Shown piece by piece: positions 3,234-46,567 of a stretch of 64,000 bases of DNA. Position numbers and translations under genes: made by a program. Below the pieces are notes generated by a model. That model worked only from the letters and a program-made list of their open reading frames with translations, did not search any database and had not been told where the DNA came from. Origin of the DNA: Candidatus Freyarchaeum deiterrae (GTDB lineage: Archaea; Asgardarchaeota; Jordiarchaeia; Jordiarchaeales; Jordiarchaeaceae). The stretch's first letter is position 1. Every line of letters starts with the position of its first letter. The stretch spans positions 1,760,001-1,824,000 of the forward strand of contig CP147778.1 of the NCBI GenBank assembly GCA_037305845.1, read 5' to 3'.

Positions 3234-4727
3234 ATGTCTAAATGGCCTTTTATTGCGGGCGACTACTTTGTTGGAAACGAAAAATCTGCTATTGCCGTAG
3301 TTACTTGCGGATCTTACGAGTTACCAAAAGAGTTAGCTAAGCTGAGTAATAAAATAGCAATTGTTGGTTTCTGTGAAACTGAAAATGATGGAATAGCAAA
3401 GATTCTACAAAACCTAGCTTCTAACCCCTATGTTAGAATACTTATTATCTGCGGTGAAAGAGTGGTTGGTCATGAACCCGGACAAACACTCATATCGCTC
3501 TACAATAATGGGATTGATAAAAACTACAAAATCAAAGGGAGTGAGGGAACTATCCCCATTCTTCACCCAAACTATTTTCACGGAGATGATCCGAATAAAT
3601 TTGTTGAAAGATTTCAAAGACAAATCATCAATGTCTTAGACGCCAGGGGAGAAACTGACATTGAAAAAATAATCTCTTTCATCAATGAGTTTGATGAACA
3701 AAATCTCTCTCCCTTTCCTGAGGATCCTATCCTTCCTTTAAGACCCAAAGTCGAATACGATTGGGATACAGGGGTAAAGCGATTTCTAGACGAAAACAGA
3801 TTCTATTTTAATAAGGGCATACCTCTGTTAAATCCTTTAATATTTACTGGACAATTGAAAGTTTATGATATCGCAGGAATTAAGATAGGCGGGCAGAGAG
3901 GCGAGTATCCTATAATTTTGGCTGGTACCATGTTTTACAGGGGAGATAAATTAGTAAGTAATCACGATGAAGGCCTTTTTGATAAAACTAAGGCCGAGGA
4001 GCAAATTAGAAAGCAAGACGAAAACTCATTAAAGTACGAACTTCCTGCAATTGTACACATCGTAGGAGAGACTACTAAAGCTTTAACAAATTATCTTCTA
4101 TTTGTCGCGGATTCTACAGATTCACCAATAATTATCGATTCACCCATTTTAGAATCAAGAATAGAAGCGATGAGCGTAGCCAAAGATACGGGGCTAGATA
4201 GTAGAGTAATATACAACTCAGTGATTAGCGCGGATAAAAAAGAAAAAAACCTAATAAACGAAATTGGAACAATAGAATATTCCATAGTTTTACCCTTTGA
4301 TGTAAAACTAACCTCAAGGATTAGCAGACTTGAGGAAATACTGAAATTTGTCGGAGACGCAATCAAAAATCCGATCATCGATCCTGGTGTCTCTATTCTA
4401 GGAGAAGGTTCGCTAAGCGCTTTGCATGCGGCTTGGTTGCTCAAAAATTATTATGGTTACCCCGTGTGTATTGGAGTGCATAACTTACAGTCTAGAATCA
4501 CTGAAAGTAAGAAGGAATTAAAAGAACTCGATTTCTCATTTGATTATGCTCTACCTTCCTTTTATGGAATTGATATAAATCTTTACGGTCCAATAAAAAA
4601 CGCAGATAGTATATTCAGAGAGGTAGCAGCTGTTGAAGCTGCAATTGCGGATGAGAATGTAAATACCATTGGAGTTTCTCCTAAACCTCCTCATCCCTAC
4701 TATGCTGTGAACCTTGGTCGTGAATAA
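3234..4727 (+). CDS. Soluble MtrA-MtrH (MtxA-MtxH-like) fusion: corrinoid protein plus methyl-H4MPT/H4F methyltransferase
   Basis: N-terminal WP..GDY.VG, G.CETENDGI.K...N..SNP..R, GHEPGQ (cobamide His). From about residue 205, IAGIKIGGQRGEYP..LAGTMFY (MtrH start), IIDS, YNS, YGPI. ATG 3234 follows a GGAGG SD (ORF track starts at TTG 3201). No TM anchor. Confidence 0.85.
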   Translation: MSKWPFIAGDYFVGNEKSAIAVVTCGSYELPKELAKLSNKIAIVGFCETENDGIAKILQNLASNPYVRILIICGERVVGHEPGQTLISLYNNGIDKNYKIKGSEGTIPILHPNYFHGDDPNKFVERFQRQIINVLDARGETDIEKIISFINEFDEQNLSPFPEDPILPLRPKVEYDWDTGVKRFLDENRFYFNKGIPLLNPLIFTGQLKVYDIAGIKIGGQRGEYPIILAGTMFYRGDKLVSNHDEGLFDKTKAEEQIRKQDENSLKYELPAIVHIVGETTKALTNYLLFVADSTDSPIIIDSPILESRIEAMSVAKDTGLDSRVIYNSVISADKKEKNLINEIGTIEYSIVLPFDVKLTSRISRLEEILKFVGDAIKNPIIDPGVSILGEGSLSALHAAWLLKNYYGYPVCIGVHNLQSRITESKKELKELDFSFDYALPSFYGIDINLYGPIKNADSIFREVAAVEAAIADENVNTIGVSPKPPHPYYAVNLGRE

Positions 4728-30045: not shown

Positions 30046-30195
30046 TGGTGCTCCGGCCGGGAAATTCGGATTGACACCAAGTGTTAATCATTCGAACCCG
30101 GGTCGAGGAGGCGAATGGACAGGCGATTCATTTGAATCGTCTAAAGCCCCTTATGCTTAGCCATATCTTGTTTGGCCGGGCTACACCACCGGAGC
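30046..30195 (-). tRNA. tRNA-Glu(UUC) with three BHB introns (21/22: 30157-30171; 34/35: 30115-30143; 59/60: 30063-30090), CCA encoded
   Basis: Spliced 78 nt: GCTCCGGTGGTGTAGCCCGGCCAAGCATAAGGGGCTTTCGCCTCCTCGACCCGGGTTCGAATCCCGGCCGGAGCACCA; full cloverleaf. Confidence 0.9.
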
Positions 30196-38835: not shown

Positions 38836-39053
38836 GGGGTTGTAGTCTAGAGGATTAAGGTTCTCTTAGACCGGAAAAATTGGTATGAGCCCTCGAGAAC
38901 CCCCTCGATGGGTACAATTCCGCTTAAGGCTTTTTAAGCGGCGAGAGTCCTGCCTGGGGCGGAGAACTCAGAGTTTTCCACTGAACGCAGGCGGTCCCGA
39001 GTTCAAGATACCATCTCAAATCGGTTGGTTTGGAAATCTCGGCAACCCCACCA
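38836..39053 (+). tRNA. tRNA-Pro(GGG) with five introns (15/16: 38851-38878; 24/25: 38889-38917; 25/26: 38919-38947; 37/38: 38960-38985; 59/60: 39008-39036), CCA encoded
   Basis: Spliced 77 nt: GGGGTTGTAGTCTAGATTGGTATGATTCCTGCCTGGGGCGCAGGCGGTCCCGAGTTCAAGTCTCGGCAACCCCACCA; all four stems pair; oligo-T follows. Confidence 0.88.
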
Positions 39054-44119: not shown

Positions 44120-44286
44120 GGGCCCGTAGCTCAGAGGAATAAACTAATACTTCCGAGAAACCTGGTAGAGCGACAGAATTCTGCCAGAAAATCGTCGAAG
44201 CTCATATGTAACGCTGAGAAACCTGTTGGTCCAGGGTTCGAAAGAGCTTTATCAGTAAAGCTCCGAACATCCCTGCGGGCCCACCA
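44120..44286 (+). tRNA. tRNA-Ile2(CAU) with four BHB introns (15/16: 44135-44160; 30/31: 44177-44199; 37/38: 44207-44220; 59/60: 44243-44269), CCA encoded
   Basis: Spliced 77 nt: GGGCCCGTAGCTCAGCCTGGTAGAGCGACAGGCTCATAACCTGTTGGTCCAGGGTTCGAATCCCTGCGGGCCCACCA. The GGGCCC acceptor is typical of archaeal Ile rather than Met tRNAs. Confidence 0.88.
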
Positions 44287-44629: not shown

Positions 44630-44647
44630 CCGAAAAAGTTATATTAA
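44630..44647 (+). promoter_or_regulatory. Putative BRE-TATA promoter of the 16S rRNA transcript
   Basis: CCGAAAAAG-TTATATTA, about 250 nt upstream of the 16S, followed by a hairpin-rich leader. Confidence 0.55.

Positions 44648-44840: not shown

Positions 44841-46567
<1,727 letters not shown>

What the first reader, a model, noticed from the sequence alone, without database searches (positions are those of the whole stretch)
44120..44286. tRNA-Ile2(CAU) with four introns and mutually exclusive BHB folds
The 30/31 intron forms GAG-CGAC-[AG|A] with GUCG-[AA|G]-CUC, using the anticodon-loop CUC. The 37/38 intron needs the same CUCA for its helix (CUCA/UGAG) and needs the ACAGG/CCUGU stem, which exists only after the 30/31 intron is removed. 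The order 30/31 then 37/38 is thus encoded in the sequence. The 59/60 intron is a perfect BHB. This tRNA normally needs agmatidine at C34 (TiaS) to read AUA, so splicing may gate decoding.
Basis: seen in the sequence. Interest (0 to 1): 0.8.

Follow-up and report, generated by a model that had tools for sequence, protein, structure and literature searches.

The report
Four-intron Asgard isoleucine tRNA gene
This is a real transfer-RNA gene of the soil Asgard archaeon Freyarchaeum that is cut by four small introns, already listed base-for-base in a 2024 paper, and its overlapping splice signals probably make some introns come out before others, a behaviour already described in archaea.

Summary
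The window is the complete Ca. Freyarchaeum genome; Valentin-Alvarado 2024 (Suppl. Data 4) lists this gene as Ile2(CAT) with the same four intron boundaries (15/16, 30/31, 37/38, 59/60). Ile2 identity holds: separate iMet and eMet exist, plus TiaS, two EndA paralogues and RtcB. The exon-helix forms of the 30/31 and 37/38 BHBs do exclude each other, and 30/31-first is the likely route. It is a bias, not a lock: the two central helices can coexist, 37/38-first is no dead end, and a toy model gives only 0.16-0.88 for this gene. The same pair occurs in dozens of Bathyarchaeia genes, and ordered archaeal multi-intron splicing is known. The scan noted similar cases on other DNA. No support for a regulatory gate on AUA decoding. 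One extra: intron 2 carries a 7-9 nt antisense copy of exon 17-24. It dominates the predicted fold, is kept in 9 of 11 orthologues, and would delay 30/31 until 15/16 is out. This is untested.

The parts
44120..44286 (+). tRNA-Ile2(CAU) precursor gene, 167 nt, five exons, encoded CCA
   Evidence: published as Ile2 CAT at genome 1804120-1804286
44120..44134 (+). exon 1 (positions 1-15); CUC 11-13 is the central-helix strand for intron 1 and the D-stem 5' strand
44135..44160 (+). intron 1 at 15/16, 26 nt, relaxed HBh' motif (3 central pairs + G-A, 4-bp intron helix, no exon helix)
44161..44176 (+). exon 2 (positions 16-30)
44177..44199 (+). intron 2 at 30/31, 23 nt, hBH motif: central CGAC/GUCG, exon helix GAG22-24/CUC32-34, no stacked intron helix
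   Evidence: central helix covaries to CGGC/GCCG in relatives
44162..44187 (+). alternative 9-bp hairpin: exon 17-24 (44162-44170) with intron-2 bases 3-11 (44179-44187); competes with the 30/31 BHB
44200..44206 (+). exon 3, 7 nt (positions 31-37), anticodon CAT at 44203-44205
44207..44220 (+). intron 3 at 37/38, 14 nt, central CUCA/UGAG, 2-bp intron helix, exon helix = anticodon stem
44221..44242 (+). exon 4 (positions 38-59)
44243..44269 (+). intron 4 at 59/60, 27 nt, canonical hBHBh' (T-stem, UUCG/CGAA, 8-bp intron helix); independent of the other three
   Evidence: absent in 4 of 11 orthologues
44270..44286 (+). exon 5 (positions 60-76) with discriminator A73 and CCA

Best explanation
An essential housekeeping tRNA-Ile2(CAU) gene that has gathered four protein-spliced BHB introns, as is normal for Freyarchaeaceae. 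EndA cuts each intron when its motif folds and RtcB joins the exons. GCUCA occurs twice in this tRNA (10-14 and 31-35), so two CUC strands compete for three GAG strands (intron 1, exon 22-24, intron 3). The result is a preferred but not absolute path: 59/60 at any time; 15/16 early; 30/31 next; 37/38 last, once the anticodon stem is continuous. TiaS then modifies C34 so the tRNA reads AUA. Shown: boundaries, pairings, enzymes present, conservation. Inferred from folding energies only: the order. Taken from established knowledge: agmatidine and its role.
For: Exact match to the published annotation. Clean mature fold. iMet at genome 1729308 and eMet at c1505101 are separate genes. TiaS, two EndA paralogues and RtcB are present. 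Full 37/38 BHB is 5.8-13 kcal/mol cheaper after intron 2 is removed in all orthologues. Intron 3 has 0-1 intron-helix pairs in 8 of 10 distinct orthologue lineages, so it depends on the anticodon stem. If a flanking helix is required, the toy model gives P(30/31 first) of 0.96-1.00 in eight orthologues. Ordered removal with 37/38 last, and archaeal cases where the last intron folds only after others are spliced, are reported (PMC3728597; PMC3978253).
Against: All order claims rest on nearest-neighbour energies without tertiary structure, pseudoknots, modifications or enzyme binding. For this exact gene P(30/31 before 37/38) ranges 0.16-0.88 with the assumptions. The TiaS hit (448 bits, E 2.6e-134, nearly full length) is under the NCBIfam cut-off of 600. 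No RNA data were examined.
Confidence: 0.7

Rival explanations
1. Strict structural lock: the 37/38 intron cannot be cut at all until 30/31 is excised and ligated, and this acts as a gate on AUA decoding.
For: The full exon-helix BHBs are mutually exclusive; 12.8 vs 0.2-3.2 kcal/mol. Intron 3 mostly lacks its own helix in orthologues. Among genes found without selecting for 30/31, either intron can occur alone, which a one-way dependence allows.
Against: The central helices are compatible; relaxed 37/38 is cheaper than the 30/31 BHB in the primary transcript. The same enzyme must cut intron 1, which has no exon helix. AUA is 32 per 1000 codons, and relatives with no anticodon-arm intron exist, so a regulatory gate is unlikely.
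Confidence: 0.12
2. No meaningful order in vivo: EndA with its specificity loop captures each relaxed motif as it forms, introns leave in any order, and the overlaps are a by-product of where introns can survive.
For: No state is a dead end. With a permissive enzyme, predicted P(30/31 first) scatters from 0.00 to 1.00 across orthologues. Each intron is gained or lost independently among relatives. Introns in these families were gained repeatedly at BHB-compatible sites (bioRxiv 10.64898/2026.10.13.758758).
Against: Large energy gaps under the stricter rule. 37/38 was always last in the C. merolae intermediates that were sequenced, though that is a eukaryotic enzyme.
Confidence: 0.15
3. The gene is an elongator or initiator tRNA-Met, or a non-functional copy.
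For: ARAGORN labels the spliced product Met by anticodon alone. Agmatidine was not measured.
Against: Acceptor stem nearly identical to tRNA-Ile(GAU) of the same genome; iMet and eMet are elsewhere. tRNAscan isotype Ile2, score 101.7. Exons are invariant across 11 orthologues except position 17 and the CCA end of one. No UAU reader in the published list or my searches.
Confidence: 0.03

Closest known systems
Freyarchaeia tRNA 22, Ile2(CAT), Valentin-Alvarado et al. 2024 (PMC11291895, Suppl. Data 4)
   Same: The same gene, same genome, same four intron start and end coordinates, same isotype.
   Different: The paper gives no structures or splicing order for it.
Heavily interrupted Asgard tRNA genes (bioRxiv 10.64898/2026.10.13.758758)
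   Same: Freyrarchaeaceae average 2.2-2.4 intervening sequences per gene, up to five, enriched at BHB boundaries; two EndA paralogues common.
   Different: Does not treat splicing order (no hits for 'order of', 'nested', 'sequential') or intron-exon pairings beyond the BHB.
Ordered processing of archaeal multi-intron pre-tRNAs (Sugahara 2007; Tocchini-Valentini 2009, as cited in PMC3728597 and PMC3978253)
   Same: The last intron forms its full BHB only after others are processed.
   Different: Here the dependence runs through the outer exon helix only; I could not read the primary papers (not held), so details of those cases are second-hand.
Cyanidioschyzon merolae multi-intron tRNAs (Soma et al. 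2013, PMC3728597)
   Same: Introns in D-arm, 37/38 and T-loop; 37/38 removed last; order follows motif stability.
   Different: Eukaryotic enzyme; the motifs there fold independently.
tRNA-Ile2 genes of Bathyarchaeia with 30/31 + 37/38 introns (found here)
   Same: Same positions, same CGAC/GUCG central helix, same clash over CUC32-34.
   Different: They lack the 15/16 intron and the antisense element in intron 2.

Membership tests
Archaeal BHB tRNA introns | Removal restores a canonical tRNA cloverleaf | tested here: met
   77-nt cloverleaf after removing all four
Archaeal BHB tRNA introns | 4-bp central helix with cuts two bases into 3-nt bulges, strict or relaxed | tested here: met
   4/4 pairs for introns 2-4, 3/4 for intron 1, paired in all orthologues; one two-sided change CGAC/GUCG to CGGC/GCCG in relatives
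Archaeal BHB tRNA introns | EndA and RtcB encoded by the host | tested here: met
   Two PF01974/TIGR00324 paralogues and one RtcB above cut-off
Archaeal BHB tRNA introns | Excision shown in RNA | not testable with these tools
   No transcript data
Archaeal tRNA-Ile2(CAU) | CAU anticodon on an Ile-type body, with separate iMet and eMet genes | tested here: met
   published isotype call
Archaeal tRNA-Ile2(CAU) | TiaS in the genome | tested here: met
   PF08489 above cut-off; NF040849 E 2.6e-134 over 3-412/422 but below its curated cut-off
Archaeal tRNA-Ile2(CAU) | agm2C34 present and Ile charged | not testable with these tools
   Established for other archaea (PMC11301382)
Obligately ordered multi-intron pre-tRNA | The last intron's motif cannot form until another intron is spliced | tested here: inconclusive
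   True for the full hBH form, not for the central helix or the HBh' form

The most novel reading that the evidence does not exclude
Intron 2 carries a selected antisense latch: its interior pairs with exon 17-24, holding the D-arm 3' strand away from the 30/31 splice fold while the 15/16 intron is still present. One intron would thus schedule the removal of another (15/16, then 30/31, then 37/38) through a pairing outside any BHB motif.
Probability: 0.3. Interest if true: 0.5.

Novelty: already known. Interest (0 to 1): 0.25.

Why it matters
As found, little: the gene, its identity and its four introns are published, and ordered multi-intron splicing is described. It remains a compact, testable substrate. 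A 167-nt RNA with natural variants (with and without the 59/60 intron, with and without the intron-2 antisense element) could show whether Asgard EndA needs a flanking helix and whether heavily interrupted tRNAs mature along fixed paths. If the antisense latch is real, intron interiors, usually treated as passive spacers, can steer the splicing of neighbouring introns.

Tried and rejected
ARAGORN and Rfam do not see the unspliced gene. A genome-wide test for introns being antisense to their own host exons found no general excess (69 introns, mean rank 0.52; 4 of 69 have 9-bp or longer runs with G-U allowed), so the hairpin is not significant in one genome alone and is no general clue to intron origin. 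Intron 4 of this gene also matches exon 17-25 over 10 bp, but it is locked in its own hairpin and not conserved: chance. The idea that the hairpin helps intron 1 fold was not clearly supported (changes of about 1 kcal/mol in either direction). The idea that intron 3 helps intron 2 by holding the D-stem 5' strand gave no consistent energy gain. A pseudoknot letting the hairpin coexist with the 30/31 central helix was considered but could not be modelled. TIGR03280 was the wrong model for TiaS. A first parser run timed out. The UAU-reader pattern was too strict to be informative. Primary papers by Tocchini-Valentini 2009, Sugahara 2007 and Marck and Grosjean 2003 were not held. Four same-genus genomes gave no Ile2 locus, probably unassembled beside the 16S gene.

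Full report
Source. The window is bases 1,760,001-1,824,000 of a single 3,576,204-base contig. This is the complete Ca. Freyarchaeum (Asgard) genome of Valentin-Alvarado et al. 2024 (PMC11291895): their Supplementary Data 4 has the row 1804120-1804286, Ile2, CAT, four introns at 1804135-160, 177-199, 207-220 and 243-269, score 101.7. With the 1,760,000 offset these are exactly the boundaries I had derived from the sequence beforehand. The gene lies between a divergent Hel308 helicase gene and the 16S rRNA gene, an arrangement kept in relatives.

Observation. Removing introns of 26, 23, 14 and 27 nt at 15/16, 30/31, 37/38 and 59/60 gives a 77-nt cloverleaf with CAU and encoded CCA. A separate intron-aware parser gave the same answer. 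Intron 4 is a full hBHBh'. Intron 1 is a relaxed HBh' with no exon helix. Intron 2 is hBH. Intron 3 has a 2-bp intron helix and uses the anticodon stem.

Identity. The genome has an initiator tRNA (1729308; A1-U72, three G-C pairs in the anticodon stem) and an elongator Met (c1505101). The third published 'Met' parses as tRNA-Glu(CUC) with a 34/35 intron. The present gene has the Ile-type acceptor stem shared with tRNA-Ile(GAU). TiaS (440 aa), two EndA paralogues and RtcB are encoded; the TiaS hit is nearly full length but under the NCBIfam cut-off. Agmatidine as the Ile determinant is established knowledge (PMC11301382). AUA is 41.5% of Ile codons and 32 per 1000 codons, so this tRNA is in heavy constant use.

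How ordinary. In this genome 5 of 32 parsed class I genes have at least four introns. A recent preprint reports 2.2 intervening sequences per gene, up to five, in this and two related families. The 30/31 plus 37/38 pair is not special either. Pattern scans returned 67 distinct Ile2 anticodon arms with both introns, 16 with 30/31 only, 4 with 37/38 only and 8 with neither. These counts are biased, because the scans asked for a 30/31 insertion and one also asked for its central helix. Of 30 genome hits with both introns, 25 are titled Bathyarchaeia. Close Jordarchaeia relatives carry one or neither intron. The reason is structural: GCUCA occurs at both 10-14 and 31-35, so the D-stem strand GAG22-24 gives any 30/31 intron a ready exon helix.

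Order of splicing (inferred, ViennaRNA). With acceptor and T stems fixed at 37 C, the full 37/38 BHB costs 12.8 kcal/mol while intron 2 is in and 0.2-3.2 afterwards. The same direction holds in all orthologues and in the 67 arms (median 12.7 vs 4.5), while the 30/31 BHB costs the same with or without intron 3 (3.2 vs 3.1). Intron 3 has at most one intron-helix pair in 8 of 10 orthologue lineages. So 30/31 first is the likely route, matching reports that the last archaeal intron folds only after others are processed and that 37/38 goes last in C. merolae. It is not shown to be obligatory. The two central helices are side-by-side hairpins and can coexist. The relaxed 37/38 fold costs only 3.4-4.5 in the primary transcript, against about 9 for the 30/31 BHB. 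Removing 37/38 first is no dead end. Asgard EndA is reported to be the (alpha-beta)2 type with the loop that permits relaxed motifs (PMC5829648), and intron 1 demands such an enzyme. A toy model with rates set by motif occupancy gives P(30/31 before 37/38) of 0.16-0.88 for this gene, and 0.96-1.00 for eight orthologues if a flanking helix is required.

Intron-2 bases 3-11 pair with exon 17-24 in a 9-bp hairpin. It is the predicted ground state whenever intron 2 is present (cost 0.1-0.2 kcal/mol) and it excludes the 30/31 BHB. Eleven orthologues, fetched mostly through the neighbouring helicase, all carry the 15/16, 30/31 and 37/38 introns. Nine keep a 7-9-bp version, across all three subclades of the helicase tree; two have lost it independently. 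One pair varies U-A/U-G, one orthologue changes C17-G to U17-A, and its sister breaks that pair. The 7-base core is identical between lineages whose four-fold sites are only 51% alike. No gene outside this clade has more than 5 such pairs. Against shuffled interiors the element raises the 30/31 cost by about 2-4 kcal/mol while intron 1 is present and mostly much less afterwards. The toy model gives 15/16 before 30/31 at 0.92-1.00 in all eight carrier lineages and 0.00-0.56 in the two that lack it; this follows from the model and is not independent evidence. Cautions: the element was picked after the fact; the intron-3 interior is also partly conserved; the region is C/A-rich; chance runs of this length occur in 4 of 69 introns; two lineages do without it. 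I put a real latch function at about 0.3.

Verdict. A real and correctly read gene that is already published, belonging to a described class. The order 30/31 then 37/38 is a probable preference, not a proven lock, and nothing supports a regulatory gate on decoding. The intron-2 antisense hairpin is the one lead I did not find described in the papers I could read. Earlier notes of this scan describe similar clashes in this genome and in other archaea; they are not independent support. Interest 0.25.

Noticed in passing
genome G000 c1545739-1545581 (outside the window): Published as tRNA-Met(CAT), but parses better as tRNA-Glu(CUC) with introns at 21/22, 34/35 (central helix GGGC/GCCC) and 59/60; the CAU is an artefact of the 34/35 intron.
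   Followed up: partly
genome G000 1729308 onward (outside the window): The initiator tRNA-Met, interrupted in the D-arm, is missing from the published tRNA table, as are Ala(GGC) 1547141, Pro(TGG) c1501840 and Glu(TTC) c1790195.
   Followed up: partly
window 30046-30195, - strand: tRNA-Glu(UUC) with three introns (21/22, 34/35, 59/60), not in the published table.
   Followed up: partly
window 38836-39053, + strand: tRNA-Pro(GGG), 218 nt; needs about 141 nt removed, as four blocks or five if the 58-nt D-arm block is two introns.
   Followed up: partly
window 44896-46517, + strand: 16S rRNA match is 1622 nt against a 1478-position model, so it probably carries insertions. A TATA-like box near 44630 suggests its own promoter, separate from the tRNA.
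   Followed up: no
window 44130-44134 with 44214-44218: Exon CUCAG (11-15) can pair with CUGAG in intron 3; the C at 44214 is invariant in 11 orthologues even where it cannot pair inside the intron. No consistent energy effect found.
   Followed up: partly
window 4618-4690, - strand: ARAGORN's only call in the window (tRNA-Val) is absent from the published table and from the Rfam hits; probably a false positive.
   Followed up: no
genome G000 1326639-1326821: Published as Ser(AGA); my parser reads a four-intron tRNA with a GCA (Cys) anticodon.
   Followed up: no
L203 and L215: The archaeal-type two-intron anticodon-arm pattern occurs in two bins titled Acidoferrum/Acidiferrales (bacteria), probably mis-binned contigs.
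   Followed up: no
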